From NCBI GenBank assembly GCA_964441235.1, contig CAYTUQ010000004.1:6269-70268 (forward strand): a stretch of 64,000 nt of DNA. Reading direction: 5' to 3'. Positions within the stretch are counted from its first letter, which is position 1; every line of letters begins with the position of its first letter. The notes below the pieces were generated by a model. The model did no database searches. It worked only from the letters and a program-made list of their open reading frames with translations, and was not told the origin of the DNA. The position numbers and the translations under genes are program-made. Below, in pieces: positions 9,649 to 50,179 of this stretch. The stretch comes from an uncultured bacterium (GTDB lineage: Bacteria; Fidelibacterota; UBA2242).

Positions 9649-10292
9649 TGTTTACCGGTCTTATTGAAGAAATGGGAAAAATCAAAGGGATTACTCCCAA
9701 CACTAAGGGTAAAGAATTTCGTATAGAGTCAAAAAAAGTTATTAATCATCTGAATATTGGTGACAGTGTCGCTATTGATGGTGCATGCCTGACTGTAACA
9801 GCCCAAACTAAAGAATATTTTTCTGTCCAAGCGGTAGAGGAGACTCTTGTAAAAACAACTTTGAAAAACGTTAAAATTGGTAGTTCAGTTAATATTGAAC
9901 GTGCTGTGCTTGCTATCGGTAGATTTGGGGGGCATTTTGTCCAGGGGCATGTTGATGGCATTGCGGAAATTGTATCATTTCAGAGAACTGGTGAAGCAGC
10001 AAAATTGAAGATTAAAATCCCTGATGCAATTGTGAAGTATATAGTTCTGAAAGGTTCGATAGCTTTAAACGGGATCAGTCTAACGGTTGCTGAGGTAAAT
10101 GGTTCAATCGTTACTATAGCATTGATTCCGCTTACTCTGAAGAATACAAATCTGGGTCAGAAAAGAGTGGGTAACAGTTTGAATATTGAGGTTGACCTGT
10201 TGGCAAAATATGTTGAGAATTTTCTTAAGAGTAAGGAACAGAAAACGATTTCAGTTGAAAAAATTAAAACATGGGGATACGGGGGAAATTGA
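9648..10292 (+). CDS. ribE: Riboflavin synthase alpha subunit.
   Basis: N-terminal MFTGLIEE...G consensus and duplicated lumazine-binding halves (GDSVAIDGACLTV and GISLTVAEV). Confidence 0.85.
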   Translation: MFTGLIEEMGKIKGITPNTKGKEFRIESKKVINHLNIGDSVAIDGACLTVTAQTKEYFSVQAVEETLVKTTLKNVKIGSSVNIERAVLAIGRFGGHFVQGHVDGIAEIVSFQRTGEAAKLKIKIPDAIVKYIVLKGSIALNGISLTVAEVNGSIVTIALIPLTLKNTNLGQKRVGNSLNIEVDLLAKYVENFLKSKEQKTISVEKIKTWGYGGN

Positions 10293-34538: not shown

Positions 34539-37500
34539 CTATCCTGATTTGACCATTTTCCCAATAAAAGTGTCAGTTTGATTTGAGTCAATAGATTTTG
34601 CTTTTATTCTATATAGATATATTCCTCGAGAAATATCATCTCCAAAATCATCTTTACCATCCCAGTGGATGAAATTAAAGCCCGGGTCTAATGGTTCGTG
34701 TAATTCAATCTCTCGAATTAATAGTCCACGAATAGTAAAAATTGATATTTTGACTTTTCCCGACTGCGTTAGAAAAAATGTAATGTCTGTTTCATCATTG
34801 AATGGGTTTGGATAGTTTACAACCTTTTCCAATTCAAGTTTTGTTGAGCCGGTTAATATAAATGTACAGCTTACAGATGATGAGTTGTTGGCATTATCCC
34901 AGGCTTTTACATAAATAGAATGTTCACCTGGCTCTATGTCAGGTAAAGGAATAAGTATAATTCCCGACGTATCGCTATTTGTATCGTAGGAAAATTCTTC
35001 AGTTAGTTGCATAGTCTGAGATTCATTGGAGTCAAACTGAAGTGTAATGTTATGTCCCAACTGGCCTGTTATATTAATTCCATGAGAATCCTGGATTTTT
35101 ATCTCTAATGGAATATCAGGTGTAATAATATCAGTATCCTGGAAGTCCATGTTCTGAAAACCTATACTGATTTTAGGGCCTATTGTATCTAAAATAGATT
35201 CTGATCCAGCAAACTTCAGAGAATCATAAAATCCACTGACTTCAACTCCACTTTCTACATCCCATGCATACAGATTTATCATTCCATATCCACCTTCGTA
35301 GTTCAAGTCTTTCGGAACGAAGAATTTTGTAGAAAAATTTTTGTCATTAATTTGGATAAATCCCTTGAACAAAATATCACCCGGTAAAGTGTATGATAGT
35401 GAATGGTTTTTTTTATTGCTGTCGATATAATTCCTTGTGACATGTCGCTCACTGTCGTAAACTTTTATAATACCTTCACCTGTTACAATTTCCGTTTGCC
35501 CTGTTACTGAAACATTTGAGAGTGCTTTTAACGAGTCTGTCATTAGATTATTGAATTCTGCTTTTTGATAAGGTAATGCAAGATACAGAGCAGGGTCCCC
35601 AAAAAGGACATATTTTTCGTTATTAGGACTGCTGCCTGTGAGAGTATATTGAATAAGTGTTCCTATTCTAATTCGATTTATTTGGTTTTTAGAAAACCAC
35701 TTTTGGAATATGGATTTTATAAATGCTGCGTTTGGACCTGCAGTTGTTGCTCGTGTAGCGGAGAAAGCTGCAATTCCTCCGTCATAAGGTTCATTGACAA
35801 GAGCCTCAGGCATACATGAACCGCTTATATTATCAAATTGCCCCCAACTGCATGTTCCGGCTATCCAGAAAGGGAGTTTCATTCCAGTATTAATTTTTCC
35901 CAGATCTGTATCCACTAGCACATGTTCTTGAGTCCAGACAGTTGAACTGCCATGGCCTAAGTAATTGATAATTGTTGTTCCGCGTTCTAACTGTTTTAAA
36001 ATTGCTTCTGTTGCAGCGGGCTTTTTAACTCCATAGGTTGACGCATCTTGTACTTCAGGATATTCAAGAAGATATAATTTATTCAATGTGAATAACTTTG
36101 GAATATTATTGGCGATTGAAAGTTCGCTATCGTTAATATGTTCCGGTTCATTATTATTTGGGCGAACAGGGTCATCTGCTACTAATGTGATTCTATTTCG
36201 CCATGATCCATAAATTGGTTCCGTAACATATTTTCGTATTTTTTCGGCTGCATTTTGAGCCTCCTCTGCCGTACGGACTGTTATCCTTCCAATTGCCATA
36301 TCCATAAATTTATCGGAACCGTTGAGATACACAAATCTTGCATCGGTGGCATAAGAGCTAAAACCACCACCACTCTCAGGTTCCGGTGATACCTGGTAAG
36401 TCAAAATATAATTTCCCTCATCAGAATCGATTTCTCGGTAATCATATGTTCCATCACCAAAAAGAAGAACATATTGAAGAGTATCTTTCCAGTTTGTAGA
36501 TACATATTTTAGGAAAGACCTTATGGCGTGAGGGTCGGGTATATTTGCATTGAATTCACGCAGTATCTGGTCTTGTAAAACTACAGTAGATGTTAGTCTA
36601 TCTTCCTCACGAACATCAGTGGAATGTAGCTTAGCAATATCTTCTGCCGCTTCCTGGAACTCTTTAGTTGTTATGATAACGTATTTGGCACCACGCTCAG
36701 TTGTTCTAAGGCTATTCCAAGAAGGAGAATTTATCAATTGTATGTTAACTGGAGATTTATACTTGTCTGGTGATGTTATAAAATAATGACTTCGTGATGA
36801 TACATCATTATTTGAGCAAAACCTTAAACATGTGTCTTCAAAAGTTTCGGTATTTTGAATGTTAACGTTACTCCAATCTGTTATATCAAAGACAATAGGG
36901 TTATTATATTCTATATCGTTGAGTCGGTATTCCATCATCCCTGAACTATTAGGTCCCCAGAAATCCATTGATTTATTTGCCGGTTTTAATTCTTTTTGAT
37001 AATTACATTCAATGTAATCCAGGTATGCCTGAGCTGATGATAGGGAAGATGTATAATCTATTCTAAATACATTAAGTCCTCGTACGAGAGTTTTAGAAAA
37101 TGTTTCCAGTATGCTGTTGTAATTATTTGATGACCAGCTATGTATTGAATTGTTCAAATGGAGATTGAAGGAGTGTTTAATGGAAGATGTACGTGCATTT
37201 GTAGCACCTTTGGTTCTGATTTTAATGCTTGCAGGATAGTCAGATTTATAATTGGGTAATTGAAAAAGAACTGAAATAGTACTCCCGGATTTTGAGAATT
37301 TCTCTCCATACCAGCGTTTTCCCGAATGAAGAAAATTATCTGCTTCGACTTCGTGACGGTCAACTTTTTCATATTCAGTAATTACGGTGGCGTGTTCAGA
37401 AGAGATATTGGGAAGTGCAGTCATTGATTTTGGTAAGGTGCCAGTAGAATTTGATATGAATAGCCAGTAATAATTTTCATAAGAGTAGCAATTTCGATTG

Positions 37501-38552
37501 AAATTTAATCTTCCATTTGAATCAGCATCAACACCGGAAGTTGATCTTCCCCAAAAGATAATAGAGTCGCCACTATTGAAGTATCCATCCTCACTTCCAA
37601 TTATTTTTCTGGAGTTTTCTACAAGATTGTCTGGAACTTCTTTTCCTATCTGAGATGATAATTCTCTCCCACCTGTTGAATTTGAATAAAGATAAATTCT
37701 ATTGATATTTATACTATCTCCACTAATTCCTGCAGATTGTAATTCCTCATAACTCACAGCATAAATACCATCTTCTTTTACAGTTATCTTAATCCATTGT
37801 CCTGGTGGGAATTGGATTGGTTTTTCAAGGGTTCTTATTCGAGGATGCTGCCATTTTGTTGCTGACTTACCATTTAAAAAAGACCTTTCAAAAAATCTTT
37901 CTTGGTACTGGTTTGGTTTTCTGGATTTTTGCCCGGGGAATTCTTTAATGAATTGAATGTGGATATCAGCTGATTTTAAAAGCGTAATTTCATTTGGATT
38001 TTTTCCTGCTTGAATTGGATAAATTTCCAGGATTCCCGCTGAAATATCTCCTAAAAAACCAGTATTGGTGAACTGAATGATTTTTTTTTCTTTTAGAATA
38101 ATATAATCTTTATCAGTTAAGGATTTTTCCAGTGTGATTTTTTCAGTAATCAAATTGGATATTGTAACGTTAGGTTTATCAGGAGTAGGTAATGCTATAG
38201 TCCATTGCCAATATGGTATAATTAGGTTATCAGAAATTTTAACAAATCGGGCATCGTTAATGTAGAAGATACTTTCGGAATTGGGATAATTTTCAGAGGA
38301 TTTCCAGTTTAGTGATGACTCATTCTTAATATGAAAAAAAATTCCATTATCTGTTTCTTCTATCAGATCATACTCAATTCCAAATATAGATGAGTAACCA
38401 ACCAGAAGGAAGGTTAAGAGTAAAAATTTGTATCCATTTAGTGAAAATGTTTTATGTTTCATAGATTCAAGTGGCTGGAATTTACATTTGTAACTATTGA
38501 ATTGCAATCCGTGATCACCTCTAACAAAATAACTTTTTTGAAAGATTCTCAT
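34539..38552 (-). CDS. Peptidase C25 (gingipain/PorU-like) family protein with a T9SS C-terminal sorting domain.
   Basis: Signal peptide. Catalytic-dyad context NYLGHGSS (His) and WIAGTCSWGQF (Cys). Ig-like repeats. Terminal ~80 aa match the T9SS CTD (KVKISIFTIRGLLIRE...GIYLYRIKA...). The probable start is the internal Met near 38463. Confidence 0.6.
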   Translation of the reverse strand: MRIFQKSYFVRGDHGLQFNSYKCKFQPLESMKHKTFSLNGYKFLLLTFLLVGYSSIFGIEYDLIEETDNGIFFHIKNESSLNWKSSENYPNSESIFYINDARFVKISDNLIIPYWQWTIALPTPDKPNVTISNLITEKITLEKSLTDKDYIILKEKKIIQFTNTGFLGDISAGILEIYPIQAGKNPNEITLLKSADIHIQFIKEFPGQKSRKPNQYQERFFERSFLNGKSATKWQHPRIRTLEKPIQFPPGQWIKITVKEDGIYAVSYEELQSAGISGDSININRIYLYSNSTGGRELSSQIGKEVPDNLVENSRKIIGSEDGYFNSGDSIIFWGRSTSGVDADSNGRLNFNRNCYSYENYYWLFISNSTGTLPKSMTALPNISSEHATVITEYEKVDRHEVEADNFLHSGKRWYGEKFSKSGSTISVLFQLPNYKSDYPASIKIRTKGATNARTSSIKHSFNLHLNNSIHSWSSNNYNSILETFSKTLVRGLNVFRIDYTSSLSSAQAYLDYIECNYQKELKPANKSMDFWGPNSSGMMEYRLNDIEYNNPIVFDITDWSNVNIQNTETFEDTCLRFCSNNDVSSRSHYFITSPDKYKSPVNIQLINSPSWNSLRTTERGAKYVIITTKEFQEAAEDIAKLHSTDVREEDRLTSTVVLQDQILREFNANIPDPHAIRSFLKYVSTNWKDTLQYVLLFGDGTYDYREIDSDEGNYILTYQVSPEPESGGGFSSYATDARFVYLNGSDKFMDMAIGRITVRTAEEAQNAAEKIRKYVTEPIYGSWRNRITLVADDPVRPNNNEPEHINDSELSIANNIPKLFTLNKLYLLEYPEVQDASTYGVKKPAATEAILKQLERGTTIINYLGHGSSTVWTQEHVLVDTDLGKINTGMKLPFWIAGTCSWGQFDNISGSCMPEALVNEPYDGGIAAFSATRATTAGPNAAFIKSIFQKWFSKNQINRIRIGTLIQYTLTGSSPNNEKYVLFGDPALYLALPYQKAEFNNLMTDSLKALSNVSVTGQTEIVTGEGIIKVYDSERHVTRNYIDSNKKNHSLSYTLPGDILFKGFIQINDKNFSTKFFVPKDLNYEGGYGMINLYAWDVESGVEVSGFYDSLKFAGSESILDTIGPKISIGFQNMDFQDTDIITPDIPLEIKIQDSHGINITGQLGHNITLQFDSNESQTMQLTEEFSYDTNSDTSGIILIPLPDIEPGEHSIYVKAWDNANNSSSVSCTFILTGSTKLELEKVVNYPNPFNDETDITFFLTQSGKVKISIFTIRGLLIREIELHEPLDPGFNFIHWDGKDDFGDDISRGIYLYRIKAKSIDSNQTDTFIGKMVKSG

Positions 38553-38591: not shown

Positions 38592-38933
38592 TTACTTTGT
38601 TTTATTGATGATAGATGAGAGAATATTTTTCAATTCACTTGCCTCTCTGTAAAATTCTCTGATCTCATTTTTAAAGTCCGGGTTAGCTGTCGCTATTAAT
38701 TAAAACCAATGTAATGTTTCTTTAGCCTCTTTACGAGAGATTTTTAAGTGGTAAATAAAATCTTTTTTACCTAAAGCGTCATTTGCTTCCCTGTAATTAG
38801 CTCCTACGGATCCTTCTGAACCAACAACTTGGCCTACTAATTTATTATTCATTGAATTGCGAGGTAATTTCTTGCATAAATAAATTACCGCTTTAGCAAA
38901 TTCTGTCGTTCTTTTCTCTAAATCAAATTCCAT
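38592..38933 (-). pseudogene. Four-helix-bundle (23S rRNA IVS-like) protein gene interrupted by an in-frame TAA.
   Basis: The 77-aa ORF (...REANDALGKKDF...KETLHWF*) continues in the same frame after the TAA at 38700-38702 as LIATANPDFKNEIREFYREASELKNILSSIINKTK. Confidence 0.5.
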
Positions 38934-39065
38934 ATAATTCGGTTATTTTAATGATTATAACTTATTGGTTATTGTTATTTGGTTATTGTCATTTACTTCT
39001 TATCTGTATCTGTAAGAAGCCAGCGAGTTTTTCTTTACTCAAGATCAATTTACTGCAAGTTTAAT

Positions 39066-40586
39066 TTATTGCTCACTCAGCGTTTCTCTGTTAAATACTT
39101 GTGCTGAAAAAATCTTTATTTCGGTATCTTTATCTTTCCAAGCATCTTTAGGCAATCCGGCTTTATAACAAGTATGTTCCAGAAATGTTTCTCTATCCCA
39201 TCCGTATTCTGTTGCTACTTGTGGAAGGAGCAAGCCTTGATAAAATCCTCTTTTAATAATTATGCCGTGTTTTCCAACTTCTATAACTTTTGGGTCAGTA
39301 ATTACTTCTGGGACTGTTAAAACAGAAACTTCGACGGTTATATCATCTAATTCACTTTTAGAAACCGGCGGGAATCTGGGGTCCTTTAATGCTGCTGATG
39401 TAGCAACTTCTATAACTGTTTCATACAACGGGTAAACAGGTAGAATGTATCCAATGCACCCTCGAAGTTGGTCATGTTCTTTTAGAGTTACAAAAGCTCC
39501 GCGCTTTTCTTTAAATTTGGTAGGGATATTTTTTAGTTTAGGTGGAGGTTGATTACTAACCACAGCTCTTACTGTATTTTCAGCAAGTTCAATAAGGTAA
39601 AGCTGTTCGTCTTTGTTCAGTTCGCCTTCAAAAAGTGATTGTGATTTCATATCTTTTTCCTTTGATTTTATGTTTTTATCATTGTAAAGAACGGCACCAA
39701 GATAGCCTACAACGCGGGATTTATCTCCTTGAGGAATATCACCACTATTGGCGTATTTAAGGACCTTTATGGAGTTTGCACCAGCCTTTTCGGCAGCTAT
39801 CATCATTGCTGTGATCGGTGCCCCGCCACATGCTTCAAAATCCTTTGATGCTAAGCCATTATAGAACAATTTGGGATTTAATAATTTTAACCGGGAAATT
39901 AATCTGCTATCAATTTTTTTACAATCTGAATATGAGTGATAATGAGAAAGATCGCTTGATGCAATTAATAAGACATTTTTCTTTGATGCGATTTCACCCA
40001 ATCGTTGCCCTAATGACTGAATTACATTCCAGTCCATTGTTCCAATAACTATCGGTACTATAGGGATGTTTCCAAGGATAGTTTGCAGAAAAGGTAATTC
40101 CACTTCAAGGCTATGTTCACCTCTCTCAAAGGGTTTAAAGCTATGTCCCGTAGATGATAACCTGACAAATTTATCTTCGGTTTCACAGAGTGATGCAATT
40201 TTTTTGTCAACAGGCATTTTCCCCAGAGGTGTGCTATAAGAATTCCCTGAGTAAACCGATGCGAAAGGGAAATATTCTATATGAGAAGGGCCAAGAATTA
40301 TTGCGGCATCATATCTGGCATTTTTAAGTTCCTTGAAGGCATAAGCAGCTACATGTGCGGAGTAAACATATCCTGCATGTGGAACGATAATTCCGATTGG
40401 TTTTGTGTTTAGTGATTTTTCTCCCGCCGATTCCAGATATTTGTTACATACTGAAGAAAGTTCTTGAGGGTTTTCTGGATAGAATCCACCTGCTGCGGTG
40501 GGAGGTCTATCCTGTGCTTTTGAAAAGCTGCCAAAGATTATGCAAAAAATAATGATTGGTTTTGATAATATTTGTGTTGTTAACAT
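39066..40586 (-). CDS. Fused AmmeMemoRadiSam system protein B (Memo) and protein A (AMMECR1), with a Sec signal peptide.
   Basis: Memo motif IIVPHAGYVYSAHVAA and AMMECR1 motif RGCIGYILP. N-terminal signal MLTTQILSKPIIIFCIIFGSFSKA-QD. The start lies 1 nt after the radical SAM stop, consistent with translational coupling. Confidence 0.7.
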   Translation of the reverse strand: MLTTQILSKPIIIFCIIFGSFSKAQDRPPTAAGGFYPENPQELSSVCNKYLESAGEKSLNTKPIGIIVPHAGYVYSAHVAAYAFKELKNARYDAAIILGPSHIEYFPFASVYSGNSYSTPLGKMPVDKKIASLCETEDKFVRLSSTGHSFKPFERGEHSLEVELPFLQTILGNIPIVPIVIGTMDWNVIQSLGQRLGEIASKKNVLLIASSDLSHYHSYSDCKKIDSRLISRLKLLNPKLFYNGLASKDFEACGGAPITAMMIAAEKAGANSIKVLKYANSGDIPQGDKSRVVGYLGAVLYNDKNIKSKEKDMKSQSLFEGELNKDEQLYLIELAENTVRAVVSNQPPPKLKNIPTKFKEKRGAFVTLKEHDQLRGCIGYILPVYPLYETVIEVATSAALKDPRFPPVSKSELDDITVEVSVLTVPEVITDPKVIEVGKHGIIIKRGFYQGLLLPQVATEYGWDRETFLEHTCYKAGLPKDAWKDKDTEIKIFSAQVFNRETLSEQ

Positions 40587-40587
40587 T

Positions 40588-41715
40588 TTAACTCCATACA
40601 CCAGGAATTGATGTTTGACAAAAACTGCATTTGCCATTTATAATGTTGTTTGAACGAATAAAATATCCCGTTCTTTCGATGAGGATTTTCCCGCAGCTCG
40701 GACAGACGGTGTTTTCAGCGGGATGACCCGGTACATTTCCAACATAAGCGAAATTAATTCCTGCATCACGGGCAACATTGTACGCCATTTCAAGAGTTTT
40801 TACTGGTGTAGGGGGGAGGTTTTTCATAAGGTACTGCGGGTGAAAACGGGTAAAATGGACAGGCACATCGGGACCAAGGTTATCAATAATCCATTTACAC
40901 ATCTCTTTAATTTGGTTCTTATCGTCATTATGAGTGGGGATAACAAGATTCACTATTTCTAGCCATTTGCCTCGTTCTTTAATAAAAACCATTGTATCAA
41001 GTACCGGTTTCATTGTTCCTGAAACTATTTCTCTATAGAATTTTTCTGAAAATGCTTTAAAATCAATTTTTATAGCATCAAGAACATTGCAGAGATCGGA
41101 CATTGGTTCCCTTTTAATGAATCCATTTGATATCATAACGCTGCGGATTCCTTTTTCTCTACCTGCTGAAGCTGTGTCACAAATATATTCAGTAAAGATT
41201 GTTGGCTCATTGTAAGTATAGGCTATAGTAGGTGATTTATAATATTTGGTTATATTGACCAGTTCTTCGGGAGAAACATACCTGAAAGAGATCTCTTCAG
41301 GTCTGACCTGTGCGATATTCCAGTTCTGGCAAAACTTACAATCAACGTTGCATCCGGCAGTAGCGACAGATAAAGCGGTTGTTCCAGGTAAAAAATGGAA
41401 CATCGGTTTTTTTTCAATAGGGTCTTGATGGATTGCGACTAAGCGACCATAAACCAGGGTTTTGTAAATACCATCCTGATTTTCGCGAACTTCACAATAT
41501 CCGCGTTTGTGATTACTAACAACACACTGTTTAGGACAAAGAAAACATTGAATCTTTTTATTGTCAAGTTTTTTGTAATAACGAGCTTCCTGTATATAGG
41601 GTTCTGCTGGTTCGGGTAAATTTGCAAAAGTTTTTTCTAAAATAGCTGGAGCAGTGGCTAATCCTGCAAAGCAAGTTCCTAACTGAAGTAAGAATTTTCT
41701 TCTGGAATTATCCAT
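40588..41715 (-). CDS. AmmeMemoRadiSam-system radical SAM enzyme (PFL-activase-like) with a twin-arginine signal.
   Basis: CNVDCKFCQNW radical SAM cluster motif and an upstream CxxC...C. N-terminus MDNSRRKFLLQLGTCFAGLATAPAIL matches S-R-R-x-F-L Tat signals. Confidence 0.7.
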   Translation of the reverse strand: MDNSRRKFLLQLGTCFAGLATAPAILEKTFANLPEPAEPYIQEARYYKKLDNKKIQCFLCPKQCVVSNHKRGYCEVRENQDGIYKTLVYGRLVAIHQDPIEKKPMFHFLPGTTALSVATAGCNVDCKFCQNWNIAQVRPEEISFRYVSPEELVNITKYYKSPTIAYTYNEPTIFTEYICDTASAGREKGIRSVMISNGFIKREPMSDLCNVLDAIKIDFKAFSEKFYREIVSGTMKPVLDTMVFIKERGKWLEIVNLVIPTHNDDKNQIKEMCKWIIDNLGPDVPVHFTRFHPQYLMKNLPPTPVKTLEMAYNVARDAGINFAYVGNVPGHPAENTVCPSCGKILIERTGYFIRSNNIINGKCSFCQTSIPGVWS

Positions 41716-42185
41716 TACTGAGAAGCCAATTTTATATCTATCTGTTTTGCTACTTTTTTTAAGTATAAATTTTTATCTGATAAATTACGTTGGGCGATTA
41801 TTTTTACAAAACAGTTGCCTTTGTAAAATGAAATGAAACCCGGGCTGTCGCTTCCTTCTTCACCGATTGGAATCTGAGAGAATGATTGATATCTTCGATA
41901 GAGACCTCTTGCACCTGTTTTATCATCGGTGAAATACATCTCTATTTTAATGATTTTAAACTCTGGAGTGCTTAGTTCTTGATTAATTATTCTGGTAAGA
42001 CCATAACCATTGTACATATTAAAATTCTCTTTAAGTACGCTTTTAAACTCACCTTCAGATTTATAATCTTCCCAATTAGTTAAAGTCCAGCCCTGAAATT
42101 CTTCTGGTTTTATGAGATACTTTTTTACAACTGAGCAAGATATAAGTAGAACTAAAACAGCAAGTAAATAGATTTTAGTTTTCAT
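41715..42185 (-). CDS. Lipoprotein of unknown function, first gene of the AmmeMemoRadiSam operon.
   Basis: Lipobox LLISCS. Its TAA overlaps the ATG of the radical SAM gene (TAATG). Confidence 0.55.
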   Translation of the reverse strand: MKTKIYLLAVLVLLISCSVVKKYLIKPEEFQGWTLTNWEDYKSEGEFKSVLKENFNMYNGYGLTRIINQELSTPEFKIIKIEMYFTDDKTGARGLYRRYQSFSQIPIGEEGSDSPGFISFYKGNCFVKIIAQRNLSDKNLYLKKVAKQIDIKLASQ

Positions 42186-42601
42186 AATGAGTTTTTTCTC
42201 TCTTTTACTTACAGCAATTTGGTAACTGGTTCTTTTTTCTTTTTTTGTTTTTTAAACCTTATCTCTAACCTCTTTATATTTTTCTATTGAAAAAGTAATA
42301 TTTATTAGAGTTTAATTCAAGTAATTATATTGGGGAAAAAATTAAAAAGTTCAATGAACCTTGATCCATGGGATAAGTCAAATTTTCTATTGATTTTCGT
42401 TCGATGTCTTTGTAATATTCTATTGAATGAAAATATATGCTATAAAAGCATGGGATTATAAACAGTGTTGCAATATTTTTTATTGAATTTTGCAAATAGG
42501 TAGAAAAGAGTCCATGCTATCTCGACATCTCTGAGATAAAGCTCTTATGTTTAAAATTTTCCCTACGGGTTGTAGACCATGTATGTACAAGAAGGAGGTG
42601 T

Positions 42602-42829
42602 GTGATGGATAAAAAAGTCGGTTACTTTCAGGAAGATAATGGGAATTTATCGTCTATGCGTTTGATGAGTTTTGTTGCACTGTTGGCGATTATTTGTTTT
42701 GGATTACTCACAATTCTGCTGGACGTTAGTAAAGTTAATGCATCTGGAATCTATATCACTTTTGGATTTTTAATTGCAGCTTTTGCACCAAAGACTCTTC
42801 AAAAGTTCGCAGAGACCAAGATTAAATAG
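42602..42829 (+). CDS. Small two-TM membrane protein, hypothetical.
   Basis: Strong RBS aaggagg 6 nt upstream. Two hydrophobic helices. Confidence 0.4.
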   Translation: MMDKKVGYFQEDNGNLSSMRLMSFVALLAIICFGLLTILLDVSKVNASGIYITFGFLIAAFAPKTLQKFAETKIK

Positions 42830-42906
42830 TATTAGAAACAACCTGTTTTCGTAGCAAAGCGACAAGGTAAATTTCTGTAACTTTTGCAGTGAATAAGTGG
42901 TTTATT

Positions 42907-44280
42907 CTATTCAGAGTAAAAGCGAATCATTTTAACTATCGCTTCACTACAAACAGGGCAGAAACCTGTTAAACTTTTAGAGAAAATTCTGCAGTCGAGA
43001 TAGGGGCGGTATAATCCCTCGGAAGAATAACCACCACCCTTAAAAGCACCAACTTTTCCCCAATATTTCTGGTTACGTAAAAATGCTTCTTTATCTTTCG
43101 CCTGGGATCTTGGAATTTTATCATATTTTTCCTTATTCCAGGGAGTTGGTGTAGGTGTCTCTGGATTTACAAGTTTTTTCCATTTAAGATTTTCTGTATC
43201 GAGTAGAGCGGTTATATTAGGTTCCCACGGTTCAACTCCTTGAGGATAGAATTCATTATAAGCAACAGCTGAGGAGTAGTATTCGTCCGCCAGTCCGGCG
43301 AAGGCATGACCGAACTCGTGGACGAAAACATAGTCGGGCCACCATGATTGTTCTTTTTTATCATCATGACTATAACAGCATGAACAGAGGTTAAAAATTC
43401 CTCCTCCGCCATATTTTGATGAATTGAATATGAAATATATCTGGTCGTAAGGTGCATTAGCGGCAATGTCCCGCATGGTCTTGTTACCTGGACCTTGAAC
43501 ATAACGGTCGATATCAAGTGTATTAAAAGAGAGGCTGAAAGCGGATTTAACGAATTTGCCATTTCTGGGGTCATCAATTCCTGACTCTTCCGACGGCACC
43601 TCCAGATACCAGACGTTGAATTTATCCTTATTTTCTTTAAAGGGAGTGTTTGAAAAAAACACATCCGCGAAATGTTTTAATTCTTTTTTAAATTTTCTTA
43701 ATTCACGTTTTGTATATCCTTCGGGCAATATAAGTATATCTACTTTCTCATTTGGAGAGCCATTTTTAATTAATGCTTTTGCCCTATATTTTCCCTTTGG
43801 CTTGTCTCTATTTATAAATCGTGAATTTGGGTCAACGACAGTTGAAAATTCTTCAATAAATTCATTCTGATGGTTTCTTGAAGAGAGTGCCAACCTTATT
43901 GGATTATTAGGAAATGGAATTAAAACTGATGCAGAGAATGTGCGAAATATTTCTTTTGCCGCCTCGTCTGTTGTTTGCCATTCAGCAAATATGCTGCAAA
44001 ATCCCCTTGAGTAAATCAATTGACCTGACTTTTCATCGAATATTTTTACGATATGATGACCTAAATTTAAAGTATCGATTAGATTTGTAAGACTTCCTGC
44101 CCAGATAGGCTCTTCAATTATTTCATCAAGGCTAATAATCGTTTGTGTTTTTGTTCCTGTTTGATAAAAATCAACTCTCATGGTTTTTTTAATGAAAAAG
44201 TCGTCGAAGTTTGGACCGGTTCCGGCGAAGATAAGAGTTGAAAAAATGATAATGTTAATAAAAACAATTAGATTTTTCAT
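42907..44280 (-). CDS. Secreted zinc metallopeptidase, M64 (IgA-peptidase-like) family.
   Basis: Signal peptide. HEFGHAFAGLADEY HExxH...E motif typical of Peptidase_M64. Confidence 0.55.
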   Translation of the reverse strand: MKNLIVFINIIIFSTLIFAGTGPNFDDFFIKKTMRVDFYQTGTKTQTIISLDEIIEEPIWAGSLTNLIDTLNLGHHIVKIFDEKSGQLIYSRGFCSIFAEWQTTDEAAKEIFRTFSASVLIPFPNNPIRLALSSRNHQNEFIEEFSTVVDPNSRFINRDKPKGKYRAKALIKNGSPNEKVDILILPEGYTKRELRKFKKELKHFADVFFSNTPFKENKDKFNVWYLEVPSEESGIDDPRNGKFVKSAFSLSFNTLDIDRYVQGPGNKTMRDIAANAPYDQIYFIFNSSKYGGGGIFNLCSCCYSHDDKKEQSWWPDYVFVHEFGHAFAGLADEYYSSAVAYNEFYPQGVEPWEPNITALLDTENLKWKKLVNPETPTPTPWNKEKYDKIPRSQAKDKEAFLRNQKYWGKVGAFKGGGYSSEGLYRPYLDCRIFSKSLTGFCPVCSEAIVKMIRFYSE

Positions 44281-44847: not shown

Positions 44848-45124
44848 AAAACCATAAATAATTTAATAGAATCAGACTTTTATCAAAACGTTTTTAAGGC
44901 CATATTTGTAAATGAGAGAACAAACCAATTCCAATATTTAATCATATACTAGCTTAAACTTAAATAATTCTATTACAACTATAAATTGTGATTTTCTCTT
45001 CGAGAGACACAAAATATTGTATATTTCCTTGACATCTAATCAACAATTTTATAAATTCTATCCGATAAATTTTTATCGAAGAGACATAGTTATTTACCTG
45101 GAACTTTCTAATTTGGAGGAATAT

Positions 45125-46003
45125 ATGTCTCAAAAAAATATAATAGATCTTACAGAATTAATTGCTGAATTAGGGCGCAATCGTCAGTCATATGTATTTT
45201 TTATAGGTAATAGTATCCCTCAAATTCATGGCGCAAAAAGTTGGAAAGAAGTCTGCAAGAATTTAATTCATGTGTGTAATGAAAATGGATCATTGAAAAA
45301 TCATGAAAAAATGTACCTTGATAAAATTATCAATGACAAGAATAAATATTCTGAAATCATCATGAAATGTAGAAAACATCTTTATGAAAGAAATGCTGAA
45401 AATGTATATAAGAATATCATTTTGAAAGCACTTAAACAAGATGGGCAGCAGTATGAAACATATAAAAAGATAATTGAGCTTGAGCCTAAACACATAATTA
45501 CAACTAATGTCGATAAGTGTCTAATTCCACAAAATGGATATACTGTAAGACCTATAAATGAATATGAATTGGTGCCAGACCATGGAATATTTTATTTACA
45601 TGGAAGTATTGACAATTTTGATGAAATGGTATTTCCATTGGATAGCTATGATAGAGTATATTCTGATGAAACTCATGATCGTTTTCTTCGATCTGTTTTC
45701 CGTAATAGAATATTATTTATAGGTTATGGGTTTGGAGAAGGGGATATACTACATTATTGCAGATTTAAACCAGAAAAATATCGATTAATGTTAAGATTTA
45801 TTAAACTCTGTGGAATCCCTGACGATAGCGACGAACAAATATTTCTAAGAGGTGAAACAGATACATTGTGGGAAAGATTCAAAATATTTACATATGAATT
45901 TCCAGTTTTTGATAATAAATGGTCAAAATTAATTGAACTCTTAAATACAATTCATGCCACAATTACGGGTAAAAAGATAAGAGATATCGGAGATGAGTTA
46001 TAA
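45125..46003 (+). CDS. SIR2-like (SIR2_2) NADase-domain protein, candidate defence effector.
   Basis: Motifs YVFFIGNSIP, IITTNVDK (catalytic Asn), YLHGSID (catalytic His) and ILFIGYGFGEGD. RBS ggagga. Its TAA overlaps the ATG of the next gene. Confidence 0.6.
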   Translation: MSQKNIIDLTELIAELGRNRQSYVFFIGNSIPQIHGAKSWKEVCKNLIHVCNENGSLKNHEKMYLDKIINDKNKYSEIIMKCRKHLYERNAENVYKNIILKALKQDGQQYETYKKIIELEPKHIITTNVDKCLIPQNGYTVRPINEYELVPDHGIFYLHGSIDNFDEMVFPLDSYDRVYSDETHDRFLRSVFRNRILFIGYGFGEGDILHYCRFKPEKYRLMLRFIKLCGIPDDSDEQIFLRGETDTLWERFKIFTYEFPVFDNKWSKLIELLNTIHATITGKKIRDIGDEL

Positions 46004-49699: not shown

Positions 49700-50179
49700 G
49701 TGAATCAAAAAAGTGAAAAAATAAAAAAGTCCATTCGATTTCGACTGCTCGAAATAAAAAAAAATAGGTTTTATCAGAGTAACTACCTTGATTTTGCTTT
49801 ATCAAAGGAAGATGTTCTTAAGGGGAATTTAAAAATTGGTGTTAATTTTGAGCTTTCCCCAAATGAAGAAACTATTTCATTGGTTCTGAAATTGGATTTT
49901 TGCCATGCTGATCATGAATTGTTTGGAATAGAGACTGTCCATAAGTACAAAATAAAAGATTTTAAAAACGCCATTCAGTACGATGAAAATAAAACATTCA
50001 ATGTACCGGATGAAATTATGAAGTTGTGGATTGGAATAGCTATCTCGGATACTCGTGGTATGCTGGTTATTTTAAATTCAGATAGTGACTACTCCAGGAT
50101 TATCTTACCTTTGATTAATCTTGATGCTTTTCTTAGGAGTATTAAAAAATCTATGAAAATTGGGCAATCATCTGAATAA
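49700..50179 (+). CDS. Hypothetical protein, third gene of the toxin-antitoxin-like module.
   Basis: Starts 3 bp after the HTH gene. No recognisable motifs. Confidence 0.35.
   Translation: MNQKSEKIKKSIRFRLLEIKKNRFYQSNYLDFALSKEDVLKGNLKIGVNFELSPNEETISLVLKLDFCHADHELFGIETVHKYKIKDFKNAIQYDENKTFNVPDEIMKLWIGIAISDTRGMLVILNSDSDYSRIILPLINLDAFLRSIKKSMKIGQSSE

What the first reader, a model, noticed from the sequence alone, without database searches (positions are those of the whole stretch)
39066..42185. An AmmeMemoRadiSam operon that appears entirely exported
The operon has three translationally coupled genes. A lipoprotein (lipobox LISCS) leads. Its TAA overlaps the ATG of a PFL-activase-like radical SAM enzyme, whose N-terminus MDNSRRKFLLQLGTCFAGLATAPAIL is a textbook twin-arginine signal. 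One nucleotide after that gene's stop begins a Memo-AMMECR1 fusion with a classical Sec signal peptide. Radical SAM chemistry needs SAM and a low-potential reductant, which are normally cytoplasmic. Tat export of a folded [4Fe-4S] radical SAM protein together with its Memo and AMMECR1 partners would therefore be very unusual. It hints at a periplasmic or cell-surface role for this enigmatic system. The Memo-AMMECR1 fusion itself is also a less common architecture.
Basis: partly seen in the sequence, partly recalled or inferred. Interest (0 to 1): 0.65.

Follow-up and report, generated by a model that had tools for sequence, protein, structure and literature searches.

The report
Periplasm-targeted AmmeMemoRadiSam enzyme operon
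A three-gene operon in a Marinimicrobia genome gives export signals to a radical SAM iron-sulfur enzyme and both of its partners. About 160 related loci show it belongs to a large clade, not described in the papers I could search, of this enigmatic enzyme system that appears to work outside the cytoplasm, where radical SAM chemistry has not been reported in that literature.

Summary
On the minus strand, 39066-42185 encodes three genes. The first is a 156-aa lipoprotein (lipobox LISC, weak DUF6599 match). The second is a 375-aa AmmeMemoRadiSam radical SAM enzyme (TIGR04337, 388 bits) with a 43-aa N-terminal extension, SRRKFLL plus a 19-residue uncharged stretch. The third is a Memo-AMMECR1 fusion with a Sec-type signal. 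The genes are coupled by a 1-nt overlap and a 1-nt gap.

The signals are not start-site artefacts. 115 of the 120 closest rSAM homologues carry [ST]-R-R-x-F-[LIC]-K. In a tree of 162 family members, 97 of 102 leaves of one clade carry signals, while its sister clade is signal-less. Adjacent Memo-AMMECR1 partners carry signals or lipoboxes in 39 of 45 cases. One polypeptide joins a signal peptide, Memo, AMMECR1 and rSAM with no membrane helix between them. Other rSAMs are fused to flavinylation-motif FMN_bind, NapH-like, DsbD_2, CBM or β-propeller modules. tatA-tatC sits beside the system in four lineages. Marinimicrobia relatives add DUF362, a NapH/NapG-like polyferredoxin and a membrane spermidine-synthase-like protein.

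Best reading: a genuinely extracytoplasmic radical SAM system. The SAM source is unexplained, and the window itself has no electron-supply genes. I found no published description. This is a new variant of a known kind, of high interest.

The parts
41715..42185 (-). Gene 1: 156-aa predicted lipoprotein, distant DUF6599 member, first gene of the operon
   Evidence: ORF. Pfam DUF6599 at 27.8 bits. Homologues of E 1e-38 to 1e-48 sit in the same position, directly upstream of the rSAM, in Marinimicrobia loci L166 and L167. DUF6599 genes lie in operon position -2 in six further (non-Marinimicrobia) loci.
42135..42185 (-). Lipoprotein signal peptide and lipobox of gene 1 (residues 1-17, MKTKIYLLAVLVLLISC)
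   Evidence: n-region KTK. The h-region has a 9-residue Kyte-Doolittle hydropathy maximum of 3.74. L-[ITA]-S-C is conserved, with Cys17 invariant in 5 sequences.
40588..41715 (-). Gene 2: AmmeMemoRadiSam radical SAM enzyme, 375 aa, PFL-activase-like fold
   Evidence: TIGR04337 at 388 bits. AF2 model with pLDDT 93. Best solved match is PFL-AE 3cb8, TM 0.82. The start overlaps gene 1's stop by 1 nt.
41623..41715 (-). Twin-arginine (Tat-type) signal region of gene 2 (residues 1-31: MDNSRRKFLLQLGTCFAGLATAPAILEKTFA), with RR at residues 5-6 (41698-41703)
   Evidence: Motif and uncharged h-region. R5, R6 and F8 are nearly invariant in 120 homologues. Low-pLDDT helix 5-29 plus disordered residues 28-40.
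41329..41352 (-). Radical SAM cluster motif C122-x3-C126-x2-C129
   Evidence: Invariant in 120 of 120 homologues, together with E170 of the TYxEP (GGE-equivalent) SAM-binding motif. Two further invariant 4-Cys motifs, C57/60/64/74 and C338/341/363/366, imply up to three metal sites.
39066..40586 (-). Gene 3: Memo-AMMECR1 fusion (AmmeMemoRadiSam proteins B+A), 506 aa from ATG 40586
   Evidence: TIGR04336 at residues 27-299 and TIGR04335 at residues 331-498. Pfam Memo and AMMECR1. PDB relatives are MEMO1 and PH0010.
40515..40586 (-). Sec-type signal peptide of gene 3 (residues 1-24, MLTTQILSKPIIIFCIIFGSFSKA, putative cleavage SKA/QD)
   Evidence: The h-region has a Kyte-Doolittle maximum of 3.36. 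93 of the 120 closest fusion homologues have an N-terminal signal, 18 of them with a lipobox.
40635..40637 (-). Alternative upstream in-frame ATG of gene 3 (523-aa form used by automatic gene callers), probably not the real start
   Evidence: The short start is favoured by GGAG at -9..-6 and by relatives P0124 and P0285.

Best explanation
The operon encodes an extracytoplasmic version of the AmmeMemoRadiSam system.

Proposed mechanism:
- The radical SAM enzyme has up to three Cys-ligated metal sites. It folds and receives its Fe-S cluster(s) in the cytoplasm and is exported folded by the Tat pathway through its SRRKFLL signal.
- The Memo-AMMECR1 fusion is exported unfolded by Sec.
- The DUF6599 protein is exported and lipid-anchored.
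- The three then act together at the periplasmic face or in the cell envelope on a still unknown substrate, probably an envelope-associated molecule.
- In related organisms, electrons for reductive SAM cleavage come from dedicated membrane conduits encoded next to or fused to the enzyme. These are a NapH/NapG-like polyferredoxin, ApbE-type flavinylated FMN_bind domains, DsbD_2 proteins, or an inserted CxxCH motif.
- The window carries only the minimal three-gene core.

Shown:
- gene identities and operon coupling;
- presence and clade-wide conservation of the signals;
- agreement between rSAM and partner signals;
- the fusion architectures;
- intact radical SAM motifs.

Inferred:
- actual export;
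- signal cleavage versus anchoring;
- catalysis outside the cytoplasm;
- the electron route;
- the source of SAM.
For: 1. Identity. TIGR04337, TIGR04336 and TIGR04335 are all far above their cut-offs.

2. Conservation of the Tat motif.
- 107 of 120 closest homologues (53-100% identity, many phyla) have RR plus an uncharged h-region of at least 12 residues. 115 of 120 have RR.
- The consensus is [ILV]-[ST]-R-R-x-F-[LIC]-K, with F at +2 in 102 of 107.
- The h-region has a median length of 17 aa and mean Kyte-Doolittle hydropathy 1.23, which is typical of Tat signals.
- Two homologous N-termini pass the curated cut-off of TIGR01409; one of them also passes PF10518.

3. Phylogeny.
- A neighbour-joining tree of 162 core domains splits into a 52-leaf clade that is almost all signal-less and a clade in which 97 of 102 leaves carry signals.
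- The window protein lies inside a 43-leaf subclade with 41 Tat-type members.
- The nearest neighbour has the same class in 149 of 157 cases.

4. Agreement with partners.
- An adjacent Memo/AMMECR1 partner of a signal-bearing rSAM has a signal in 39 cases and none in 6.
- 93 of 120 fusion homologues have signals or lipoboxes.
- The heuristic flagged only 2 of about 52 cytoplasmic-clade rSAMs.

5. Fusions that fix the compartment.
- P0155 is signal peptide-Memo-AMMECR1-rSAM with no transmembrane helix between the domains.
- P0144 is an N-terminal anchor, then FMN_bind with the flavinylation motif DAVSGAT, then the rSAM, with no transmembrane helix between them; P0158 has the same architecture, but no flavinylation motif was found in it.
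- P0139 and P0140 are signal plus β-propeller or CBM_11-like domain plus rSAM.
- P0142, P0147 and P0152 carry FMN_bind and NapH-like Fer4_5 (± DsbD_2) before the rSAM; P0151 and P0154 carry DsbD_2 alone.

6. Accessory genes specific to signal-bearing loci (98 loci against 63 signal-less loci).
- SpeE-like membrane protein: 54 against 10.
- RR-signal DUF362: 25 against 1.
- DsbD_2: 16 against 1.
- DUF6599: 7 against 0.

7. tatA-tatC lies immediately beside the system in L048, L063, L073 and L089.

8. Marinimicrobia relatives have DUF362(RR)-NapH/NapG-like-lipoprotein-rSAM-Memo/AMMECR1, with a SpeE-like gene downstream.

9. In the AF2 model, residues 41-375 have block-mean pLDDT of 90 or more (mostly 93-99), while residues 1-40 form a detached low-confidence helix and linker.

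10. CX3CX2C and the SAM-binding Glu are invariant. The enzyme is under selection as a radical SAM enzyme.
Against: - To my knowledge (not tested here), no periplasmic pool or exporter of SAM has been described. Nothing here identifies one.
- The window's own N-terminus does not reach the curated Tat-signal HMMs.
- No tatA or tatC, and no DUF362, NapH-like, DsbD_2, FMN_bind or SpeE-like gene, lies in the 64-kb window. The reductant for this particular operon is therefore unknown.
- About 25 family members, mainly in Omnitrophota and Elusimicrobia, carry Sec-type rather than Tat-type N-termini. That is hard to reconcile with Fe-S insertion in the cytoplasm.
- Five loci pair a signal-less short rSAM with a signal-bearing Memo-AMMECR1.
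- A few loci pair an RR-bearing rSAM with a stand-alone AMMECR1 that has no signal (L008, L051, L059).
- All signal calls are rule-based. There is no experimental localisation for any member.
Confidence: 0.68

Rival explanations
1. The proteins are exported, but the radical SAM step happens in the cytoplasm before Tat transport. The enzyme binds SAM and is reduced inside the cell. It then either performs one turnover there, or is exported pre-loaded and performs a single activating turnover outside, for example installing a protein radical or a one-off modification on Memo-AMMECR1 in the manner of a glycyl-radical activase. No periplasmic SAM pool is needed.
For: - The enzyme is closest to glycyl-radical enzyme activases, which act once per target protein.
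- Tat exports folded proteins with their cofactors bound (established knowledge).
- The window operon has no electron-supply genes.
- This reading removes the SAM-supply paradox.
Against: - Many relatives encode or are fused to extracytoplasmic electron-delivery modules: FMN_bind with a flavinylation motif, a NapG-like polyferredoxin, DsbD_2 or a CxxCH insert. These are pointless if no reduction happens outside.
- Sec-type members cannot fold or load SAM before export.
- The Memo-AMMECR1 partner crosses by Sec, so it cannot meet the enzyme in the cytoplasm in folded form.
Confidence: 0.17
2. The N-terminal RR or hydrophobic segments are membrane tethers or vestigial Tat-like leaders, as in NarG. 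The radical SAM domain stays on the cytoplasmic face, and only Memo-AMMECR1 and the lipoprotein are outside. The rSAM would modify a membrane-embedded substrate that is then flipped outward.
For: - Five loci pair a signal-less rSAM with an exported Memo-AMMECR1. The two activities may therefore be able to sit in different compartments.
- SAM and low-potential reductants are cytoplasmic.
- The window's leader fails the curated Tat HMMs.
- In polytopic fusions (P0142, P0147, P0151) my transmembrane-helix counts are too crude to fix the side of the rSAM.
Against: - Positive charges precede the hydrophobic segment, which predicts N-in/C-out.
- The triple fusion P0155 and the FMN_bind-rSAM fusions P0144 and P0158 have no transmembrane helix between exported domains and the rSAM.
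- The canonical Tat consensus, with F at +2 in 102 of 107, is maintained far better than in vestigial leaders.
- tatAC lies next to the system in four lineages.
- In L097 and L138 the signal-less rSAM is followed by a small RR-plus-TM ORF that could act as a separate Tat escort.
Confidence: 0.1
3. The signals are artefacts, produced by wrong start codons or by a chance RR motif and hydrophobic stretches in an ordinary cytoplasmic AmmeMemoRadiSam operon.
For: - Gene 3 has two candidate starts.
- Short signal-like sequences can arise by chance.
- The DUF6599 match is marginal.
Against: - The family model starts at residue 44, and the only start codon in the ORF upstream of the domain is the one that gives the RR leader.
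- The leader is conserved in 115 of 120 homologues across phyla.
- Both candidate starts of gene 3 retain the hydrophobic segment.
- Canonical cytoplasmic members start MKEAxFY with no extension.
Confidence: 0.02

Closest known systems
Canonical AmmeMemoRadiSam system (NCBIfam TIGR04337 rSAM, TIGR04336 Memo-like protein B, TIGR04335 AMMECR1-like protein A). From memory, also discussed by Burroughs et al. 2019, J Biol Chem 294:10211; that paper is not in the library.
   Same: The same three protein families, all above curated cut-offs. The same invariant CX3CX2C, N-terminal 4-Cys and C-terminal 4-Cys motifs. The function is unknown in both.
   Different: Canonical members are about 330-345 aa, start MKEAxFY and have no N-terminal extension. 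They form the sister clade and in my sample rarely sit next to Memo/AMMECR1: 51 of 61 had no partner in the flank. The window's clade adds export signals to every component, usually fuses Memo to AMMECR1, and recruits SpeE-like, DUF362, DsbD_2, NapH-like and DUF6599 genes.
Pyruvate formate-lyase activating enzyme and other glycyl-radical enzyme activases
   Same: Closest solved fold: 3cb8, TM 0.82, rmsd 2.6 Å. Closest sequence relatives outside the family are PFLA, YjjW and NrdG. The TYxEP motif aligns with the GGE SAM-binding motif of the activases.
   Different: Scores are far below the activase cut-offs (59 against 232 bits). Extra 4-Cys modules are present at both ends. There is no glycyl-radical enzyme partner. 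The known activases have no export signal (my knowledge of the family, not tested here).
Tat-exported iron-sulfur proteins (NapG, HybA, DmsB via DmsA, [NiFe]-hydrogenase small subunits, DsrO)
   Same: An N-terminal S/T-R-R-x-F-L-K leader on a protein that must acquire Fe-S clusters before transport. The window leader gives weak matches to the DsrO and formate-dehydrogenase Tat leaders. Marinimicrobia relatives place a NapH/NapG-like protein in the same operon.
   Different: Those proteins are electron carriers in respiratory chains. None is a radical SAM enzyme that needs a soluble co-substrate (SAM) at its destination.
ApbE-flavinylated extracytosolic electron-transfer systems (NosR, NapH-like and DsbD systems; Méheust et al. 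2021, PMC8238504)
   Same: Relatives of the window enzyme are fused or adjacent to FMN_bind domains carrying the D-x-x-[ST]-G-A-T flavinylation motif, to PF12801 NapH-like modules and to DsbD-type membrane proteins.
   Different: That survey does not mention radical SAM, Memo or AMMECR1. The window operon itself has none of these modules.
Radical SAM maturases of exported proteins (anaerobic sulfatase-maturating enzymes; the HXS antiphage system, PMC13128918)
   Same: They link radical SAM chemistry to a periplasmic end product.
   Different: As I understand it (the HXS paper turned up, abstract only), in those systems the rSAM enzyme is cytoplasmic and only its substrate is exported. Here the rSAM enzyme itself carries the export signal.

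Membership tests
AmmeMemoRadiSam system | Radical SAM component matches TIGR04337 above the curated cut-off (220 bits) | tested here: met
   388 bits, residues 44-374
AmmeMemoRadiSam system | Memo-like protein B (TIGR04336 / PF01875) | tested here: met
   253.9 bits, residues 27-299. Pfam Memo at 205 bits. Aligns to MEMO1 structures.
AmmeMemoRadiSam system | AMMECR1-like protein A (TIGR04335 / PF01871) | tested here: met
   198.6 bits, residues 331-498. Aligns to PH0010 at E 1e-46, including the LRGCIG motif.
AmmeMemoRadiSam system | The three components are encoded together | tested here: met
   Adjacent and translationally coupled on one strand
Radical SAM superfamily | CX3CX2C cluster motif and SAM-binding GGE-type motif | tested here: met
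   C122/C126/C129 and E170 are invariant in 120 homologues. PF04055 at 69 bits. PFL-AE-like fold.
Radical SAM superfamily | Binds a [4Fe-4S] cluster and reductively cleaves SAM | not testable with these tools
   Needs the purified protein
Tat (twin-arginine) substrates | N-terminal consensus S/T-R-R-x-F-L-K | tested here: met
   S4-R5-R6-K7-F8-L9-L10. The same consensus appears in 107-115 of 120 homologues.
Tat (twin-arginine) substrates | Uncharged, moderately hydrophobic h-region after the motif, then a short polar c-region | tested here: met
   19 uncharged residues with mean Kyte-Doolittle hydropathy 1.66, then EKTFA/N
Tat (twin-arginine) substrates | Match to the curated Tat-signal profiles (TIGR01409, PF10518) | tested here: not met
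   No hit for the window N-terminus. Homologues P0017 and P0057 pass TIGR01409, and P0057 also passes PF10518. Fewer than 33 of 120 full-length homologues reached E 0.01. These short profiles are insensitive.
Tat (twin-arginine) substrates | TatA/TatC translocase present in the genome | tested here: inconclusive
   Neither gene is in the 64-kb window, and the rest of the genome was not available. tatA-tatC lies next to the system in L048, L063, L073 and L089.
Tat (twin-arginine) substrates | Demonstrated Tat-dependent export | not testable with these tools
   Needs reporter fusions or tat mutants
Bacterial lipoproteins | Signal peptide ending in a lipobox [LVI][ASTVI][GAS]C | tested here: met
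   LLISC17, with L-[ITA]-S-C conserved in 5 sequences. The L166 and L167 homologues have LTGC and AVSC. LipoP was not available.
Sec signal peptides | Positively charged n-region, hydrophobic h-region, small residues at -3 and -1 | tested here: met
   Gene 3 has K9, PIIIFCIIFGSF and S-K-A/Q. The signal is conserved in 93 of 120 homologues. SignalP was not available.
DUF6599 (PF20244) | Match above the Pfam gathering score | tested here: inconclusive
   27.8 bits against a cut-off of 27 for the window protein. A homologue from locus L015 (organism not checked) in the equivalent operon position scores 65.6 bits. phmmer finds no direct similarity between the two.

The most novel reading that the evidence does not exclude
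This would be the first radical SAM enzyme system that carries out catalysis outside the cytoplasm. The enzyme would be a Tat-exported multi-metal rSAM, Sec-exported in some phyla. It would work in the periplasm with Memo-AMMECR1. It would receive low-potential electrons from dedicated transmembrane conduits: a NapH/NapG-like polyferredoxin, ApbE-flavinylated FMN domains acting as a periplasmic substitute for flavodoxin, DsbD_2, or an inserted haem-c motif. This implies a SAM supply route to the periplasm that nobody has recognised. The obvious candidate is the co-conserved polytopic protein whose spermidine-synthase-like, SAM/dcSAM-binding domain appears to face outward. The envelope location and the accessory genes would also give the first experimental handle on what Memo and AMMECR1 do.
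Probability: 0.45. Interest if true: 0.92.

Novelty: new variant of a known kind. Interest (0 to 1): 0.78.

Why it matters
Radical SAM enzymes form one of the largest enzyme superfamilies. To my knowledge every studied member works in the cytoplasm or an organelle matrix, because it needs SAM and a reductant of very low potential.

A large, phylogenetically coherent clade spanning more than 20 phyla, DPANN archaea included, in which the enzyme and all its partners carry export signals challenges that assumption. Some members carry their own extracytoplasmic electron-donor domains. The clade raises three concrete and testable questions:
- How does SAM reach the periplasm?
- How is the cluster reduced there?
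- In the Sec-type members, how is an Fe-S cluster assembled outside the cell?

The clade also matters for Memo and AMMECR1. Both are conserved from bacteria to humans and, as I recall, have been linked to human disease, yet their biochemistry is unknown (my background knowledge, not checked here). An envelope-located version with informative neighbours narrows the search for a substrate. Those neighbours are a lipoprotein, DUF362, a spermidine-synthase-like membrane protein, and CBM or β-propeller fusions. Simple localisation and genetic experiments become possible.

Tried and rejected
1. AlphaFold of the lipoprotein from a 5-sequence alignment gave pLDDT 38 and is unusable. No fold search was run on it.

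2. A homology search for the lipoprotein found only 4 close relatives. Its wider links come only from the Pfam DUF6599 match and from synteny.

3. The sigma-70 promoter and terminator scan of 38600-42900 gave nothing beyond the shuffled expectation: 15 promoter-like sites against 15.1, and 1 terminator-like site against 2.6.

4. A census of the curated Tat-signal HMM over 120 full-length homologues was uninformative. TIGR01409 was not among the 25 families listed, so fewer than 33 members hit it. I relied on explicit motif rules instead.

5. Motif and phmmer searches found no tatA, tatC, DUF362, NapH-like, DsbD_2 or SpeE-like gene in the window. Because only 64 kb was available, this says nothing about the rest of the genome.

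6. Literature.
- 'AmmeMemoRadiSam' occurs in only six papers, none with it in title or abstract; I did not open them.
- No paper holds the phrases periplasmic, extracytoplasmic, exported, secreted or extracellular radical SAM.
- Searches on radical SAM with twin-arginine or Tat signal returned no title or abstract describing an exported rSAM enzyme.
- The flavinylation survey does not mention the system.
- The key comparative paper on Memo-AMMECR1-rSAM (Burroughs et al. 2019, PMC6664185) is not held. I cannot exclude that it notes secreted versions.

8. A control set chosen with a signal-less query was meant to test whether cytoplasmic rSAMs have signal-less partners. Most such loci had no adjacent partner at all, so the negative half of the contingency table is too thin for statistics.

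9. Transmembrane-helix counting in the polytopic fusions (P0142, P0147, P0151, P0152) was too crude to decide on which side the rSAM lies.

10. I rejected chance or start-site artefact as an explanation.

Full report
**What is in the sequence**

On the minus strand of 39066-42185 there are three consecutive ORFs.

- Gene 1 (41715-42185, 156 aa) begins MKTKIYLLAVLVLLISCS. It has a basic n-region, a very hydrophobic h-region and a lipobox, L-I-S-C17. The Cys is invariant in its four close homologues. Its only family match is a marginal one to DUF6599 (27.8 bits against a cut-off of 27).
- Gene 2 (40588-41715, 375 aa) is an AmmeMemoRadiSam radical SAM enzyme. It scores 388 bits on TIGR04337 (cut-off 220). 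The profile begins only at residue 44. The preceding 43 residues are MDNSRRKFLLQLGTCFAGLATAPAILEKTFANLPEPAEPYIQ. They contain the twin-arginine consensus followed by 19 uncharged residues of moderate hydrophobicity (mean Kyte-Doolittle hydropathy 1.66).
- Gene 3, read from ATG 40586 (506 aa), is a fusion of Memo (TIGR04336, residues 27-299) and AMMECR1 (TIGR04335, residues 331-498). It sits behind MLTTQILSKPIIIFCIIFGSFSKA/QD, a Sec-type signal.

Gene 1's TAA shares base 41715 with gene 2's ATG. A single base (40587) separates gene 2's stop from gene 3's ATG.

Two qualifications apply.
- Gene callers extend gene 3 to an upstream ATG at 40637, giving 523 aa. A GGAG 5 nt before ATG 40586 and relatives annotated from the equivalent position (MKTIKILSKQ...) favour the short form. 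The hydrophobic segment is present either way.
- The window's RR leader does not reach the curated Tat-signal HMMs. It gives only weak matches to the Tat leaders of DsrO and of a formate-dehydrogenase-associated protein. Two homologous leaders do pass TIGR01409, and one of them also passes PF10518.

**Organism and context**

The three proteins fall in 90%-identity clusters with proteins of a Candidatus Neomarinimicrobiota MAG. The operon lies between a division/cell-wall gene cluster with a C25 peptidase on one side, and an M64 peptidase with a defence island on the other. Nothing nearby is functionally linked to it. The promoter and terminator scans gave nothing above chance.

**Are the signals real?**

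The 120 closest homologues of the rSAM are 53-100% identical. Those that carry a source name come from Marinimicrobia, KSB1, Calditrichota and Acidobacteriota. Almost all are 370-400 aa long and cover the query end to end.
- 107 of them have RR followed within 10 residues by at least 12 uncharged residues. 115 have the RR pair. The other five look like N-terminally truncated gene calls; two of them (P0053, P0118) match the interior of longer entries.
- The consensus is [ILV]-[ST]-R-R-x-F-[LIC]-K, with Phe at +2 in 102 of 107.
- The h-region has a median length of 17 residues and mean Kyte-Doolittle hydropathy 1.23, less hydrophobic than the two Sec-type h-regions in this operon and in the range I expect for Tat leaders.

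In the window, this is the only ORF of at least 100 aa with such an N-terminus. An AlphaFold model built on the 120-sequence alignment is very confident for residues 41-375 (overall mean pLDDT 93 for the whole chain). It leaves residues 1-40 as a low-confidence lone helix plus a disordered linker, as I would expect for a signal peptide. The folded part is most similar to pyruvate formate-lyase activating enzyme (3cb8, TM 0.82).

**Family-wide picture**

I collected 80 loci from GTDB species representatives with a profile of the exported type. I collected 80 metagenome loci with a profile of canonical, signal-less members. I then classified N-termini with explicit rules, trying every possible start codon.

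A neighbour-joining tree of 162 core domains splits into two groups. One is a 52-leaf clade that is almost entirely signal-less; its proteins start MKEAxFY. In the other, 97 of 102 leaves carry a signal: 72 are RR or KR Tat-type and 25 are Sec-type. The window protein sits in a 43-leaf subclade with 41 Tat-type members. The nearest neighbour shares the signal class in 149 of 157 cases.

The exported clade spans Acidobacteriota, Planctomycetota, KSB1, Latescibacterota, Zixibacteria, Omnitrophota, Desulfobacterota, Verrucomicrobiota, Ignavibacteria, Elusimicrobia, Chlamydiae and others, and also Altiarchaeota and Aenigmatarchaeota.

**Agreement among the components**

Where a signal-bearing rSAM has a Memo/AMMECR1 gene nearby, that partner has a signal peptide, signal anchor or lipobox in 39 cases and none in 6. 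Three more loci scored 'none' (L020, L060, L064) have RR leaders that my rule missed. Among the 120 closest homologues of the window's Memo-AMMECR1 fusion, 93 have a clear signal, 18 of them with a lipobox. Several of the 23 without one are visibly truncated starts; P0402, for example, is identical to the interior of P0391. Canonical proteins with solved structures (MEMO1, PH0010) align from their first residues and have no extension.

**Fusions that fix the compartment**

A search of 1.84 billion cluster representatives returned several informative architectures.
- P0155 is signal peptide-Memo-AMMECR1-rSAM in a single chain, with no hydrophobic helix between the domains.
- P0159 is an N-terminal helix followed by rSAM-Memo-AMMECR1.
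- P0144 and P0158 are an N-terminal anchor, an FMN_bind domain and the rSAM, with no helix between them. In P0144 the FMN_bind domain carries the ApbE flavinylation motif (DAVSGAT). That domain type is flavinylated outside the cytoplasm.
- P0142, P0147 and P0152 add NapH/NosR-like PF12801 membrane modules.
- P0151, P0152 and P0154 add DsbD_2.
- P0139 and P0140 place a β-propeller or a CBM_11-like domain between a Sec signal and the rSAM.

Together these argue strongly that the rSAM domain shares a compartment with exported domains. They also suggest how it is reduced there. I have not shown on which side the rSAM lies in the polytopic fusions, because my helix counts are too crude.

**Accessory genes**

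Clustering of neighbouring genes found four families enriched in the 98 signal-type loci relative to the 63 signal-less loci.

| Family | Signal-type loci (of 98) | Signal-less loci (of 63) |
|---|---|---|
| Polytopic membrane protein of about 700-800 aa with a spermidine-synthase domain in its large loop | 54 | 10 |
| DUF362 proteins (the representative inspected has an RR leader) | 25 | 1 |
| DsbD_2 membrane proteins, some extended by FMN_bind and Fer4_5 | 16 | 1 |
| DUF6599 proteins | 7 | 0 |

A crude positive-inside count places the spermidine-synthase-like loop on the outer side in 30 of 35 members, counting three ties. tatA-tatC lies immediately next to the system in L048, L063 (tatA-tatC-rSAM-Memo/AMMECR1 on one strand), L073 and L089.

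In three Marinimicrobia relatives whose rSAM is 63-64% identical, the locus reads as follows: DUF362 with an RR leader; a 510-aa NapH-like protein whose C-terminal polyferredoxin follows an internal TTRRAVLKF-plus-helix segment (NapG-like); a 155-156-aa lipoprotein homologous to window gene 1 (E 1e-38 to 1e-48; absent from one of the three loci); the rSAM; and Memo-AMMECR1. A spermidine-synthase-like membrane protein is encoded on the opposite strand further downstream.

The window contains none of the DUF362, NapH-like, DsbD_2 or SpeE-like genes. It carries the minimal core of lipoprotein, rSAM and Memo-AMMECR1.

**Is the enzyme still a radical SAM enzyme?**

C122-x3-C126-x2-C129 and E170 are invariant across the 120 homologues. 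E170 aligns with the Glu of the GGE SAM-binding motif of PFL-AE. Two further 4-Cys motifs (C57/60/64/74 and C338/341/363/366) are also invariant. A protein with up to three metal sites is the kind of cargo that the Tat pathway exists to carry.

**Interpretation**

The best-supported explanation is that the whole system is exported and works at the periplasmic face or in the envelope (confidence about 0.68). The rSAM goes by Tat, the Memo-AMMECR1 fusion by Sec, and the DUF6599 protein as a lipoprotein. In many lineages, electrons are delivered by NapH/NapG-like, flavinylated FMN_bind, DsbD_2 or haem-motif modules.

- Shown: the identities, the coupling, the signals and their conservation, the agreement between components, the fusions and the synteny.
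- Inferred: export itself, cleavage versus anchoring, catalysis outside the cytoplasm, and the electron path.
- Unexplained: the SAM source. The co-conserved spermidine-synthase-like membrane protein is only a candidate. It is also unknown how the window's organism reduces the enzyme.

The main rival (about 0.17) keeps export but puts the SAM-dependent step in the cytoplasm before Tat transport, or limits it to one pre-loaded turnover. The extracytoplasmic electron-donor modules and the Sec-type members argue against this.

A cytoplasmic-face tether or a vestigial leader (about 0.10) gains some support from five loci in which a signal-less, shortened rSAM (M..VQCELCP) sits next to an exported Memo-AMMECR1. 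It is contradicted by the fusions, the charge distribution, the very canonical Tat consensus and the tatAC synteny.

A start-site or chance artefact is effectively excluded.

**Observations that do not fit neatly**

About 25 members, mostly in Omnitrophota, Elusimicrobia and neighbouring groups, have classical Sec-type leaders, for example MKKSLLLLILLLSVLFPAIGADQ. That would require the Fe-S cluster to be inserted outside the cell. These members are the ones associated with DsbD_2 neighbours, in 13 of 25 cases against 3 of 72 for Tat-type members.

A basal 11-member subclade has an insertion of 25-30 residues containing CxxCH plus downstream His residues. This is a haem-c-like motif, and as far as I know covalent haem is attached only outside the cytoplasm.

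**Comparison with what is known**

The operon is a full member of the AmmeMemoRadiSam system by every sequence criterion. It belongs to a distinct exported clade. I found no publication describing an exported radical SAM enzyme or an exported Memo/AMMECR1 system. The flavinylation survey does not mention it. The 2019 comparative paper on Memo-AMMECR1-rSAM could not be read, so prior mention there cannot be excluded.

I rate the finding as a new variant of a known kind, with interest 0.78.

Noticed in passing
window 45017-48780 (+), plus 49700-50179: A Dsr1-type (defence-associated sirtuin) antiphage gene appears to be split into two overlapping ORFs. The 328-aa SIR2 part matches Dsr1 profile positions 11-217. 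The 925-aa part matches positions 315-1224. The stop of the first and the start of the second share base 46003. A nearby 159-aa ORF hits the PADLOC candidate PDC-M64C.
   Followed up: partly
loci L038, L040, L043, L056, L060, L064, L076, L079, L117, L129 (rSAM N-terminal region): A basal subclade of the exported rSAMs carries an insertion of 25-30 aa with a CxxCH motif and downstream His residues, between the 'ARYW' strand and the conserved CxxCxxxC motif. It looks like a haem-c binding site. If so, it would be further evidence for an extracytoplasmic location and an electron entry point.
   Followed up: partly
loci L031, L041, L047, L052, L054, L055, L065, L069, L071, L074, L075, L091, L105, L109, L146, L156: In Omnitrophota, Elusimicrobia and related lineages the rSAM has a classical Sec-type leader (KK plus a Leu-rich helix) instead of a Tat leader. 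These loci preferentially encode a DsbD_2 membrane protein (13 of 25 against 3 of 72). A Sec-exported Fe-S enzyme has no known way of acquiring its cluster.
   Followed up: partly
54 of 98 signal-type loci, e.g. L038 8762-10879 and L165 10660-12849: The most frequent neighbour of the exported system is a polytopic protein of about 700-800 aa with a spermidine-synthase (SAM/dcSAM-binding) domain in its large loop. A crude positive-inside count puts that loop on the outer side in 30 of 35 members. It is a possible link to the SAM-supply problem. It is absent from the window.
   Followed up: partly
L097 2420-2641 and L138 5921-6157: In two loci where the rSAM lacks a leader, a small ORF of 74-79 aa encoding MTRRKF... 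plus one hydrophobic helix lies between the rSAM and the Memo-AMMECR1 gene. It may be a separately encoded Tat escort or anchor.
   Followed up: no
L063 4877-5827, L089 2086-3132, L073 ~9171-10168, L048 ~9412-9926: tatA and tatC lie immediately next to the exported AmmeMemoRadiSam genes in four unrelated lineages, including two DPANN archaea.
   Followed up: partly
L165 6382-7914, L166 5991-7535, L167 5990-7522: Marinimicrobia relatives encode a 510-aa NapH-like protein with two CX3CP motifs. It is fused, through an internal 'TTRRAVLKF' plus helix segment, to a multi-[4Fe-4S] NapG-like domain. The gene lies just upstream of the lipoprotein-rSAM genes.
   Followed up: partly
proteins P0139 and P0140: rSAM domains of this clade are fused behind a Sec signal to a β-propeller (Reg_prop/PorZ_N-like) or to a CBM_11-like carbohydrate-binding module. 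This hints at a polysaccharide or cell-surface substrate.
   Followed up: no
window 34539-38552 (-), 38700-38933 (-), 42907-44280 (-): The operon is flanked by a 1337-aa C25 (gingipain-family) peptidase, a 77-aa 23S-rRNA-intervening-sequence-type four-helix protein and an M64 (IgA-peptidase-like) protein. No functional link to the operon was seen.
   Followed up: no
window 40587-40637 (-): Automatic gene callers extend the Memo-AMMECR1 gene 17 codons upstream into the 3' end of the rSAM gene. The same artefactual extension is seen in relatives (P0288, P0289). This hides the signal peptide's normal n-region.
   Followed up: yes
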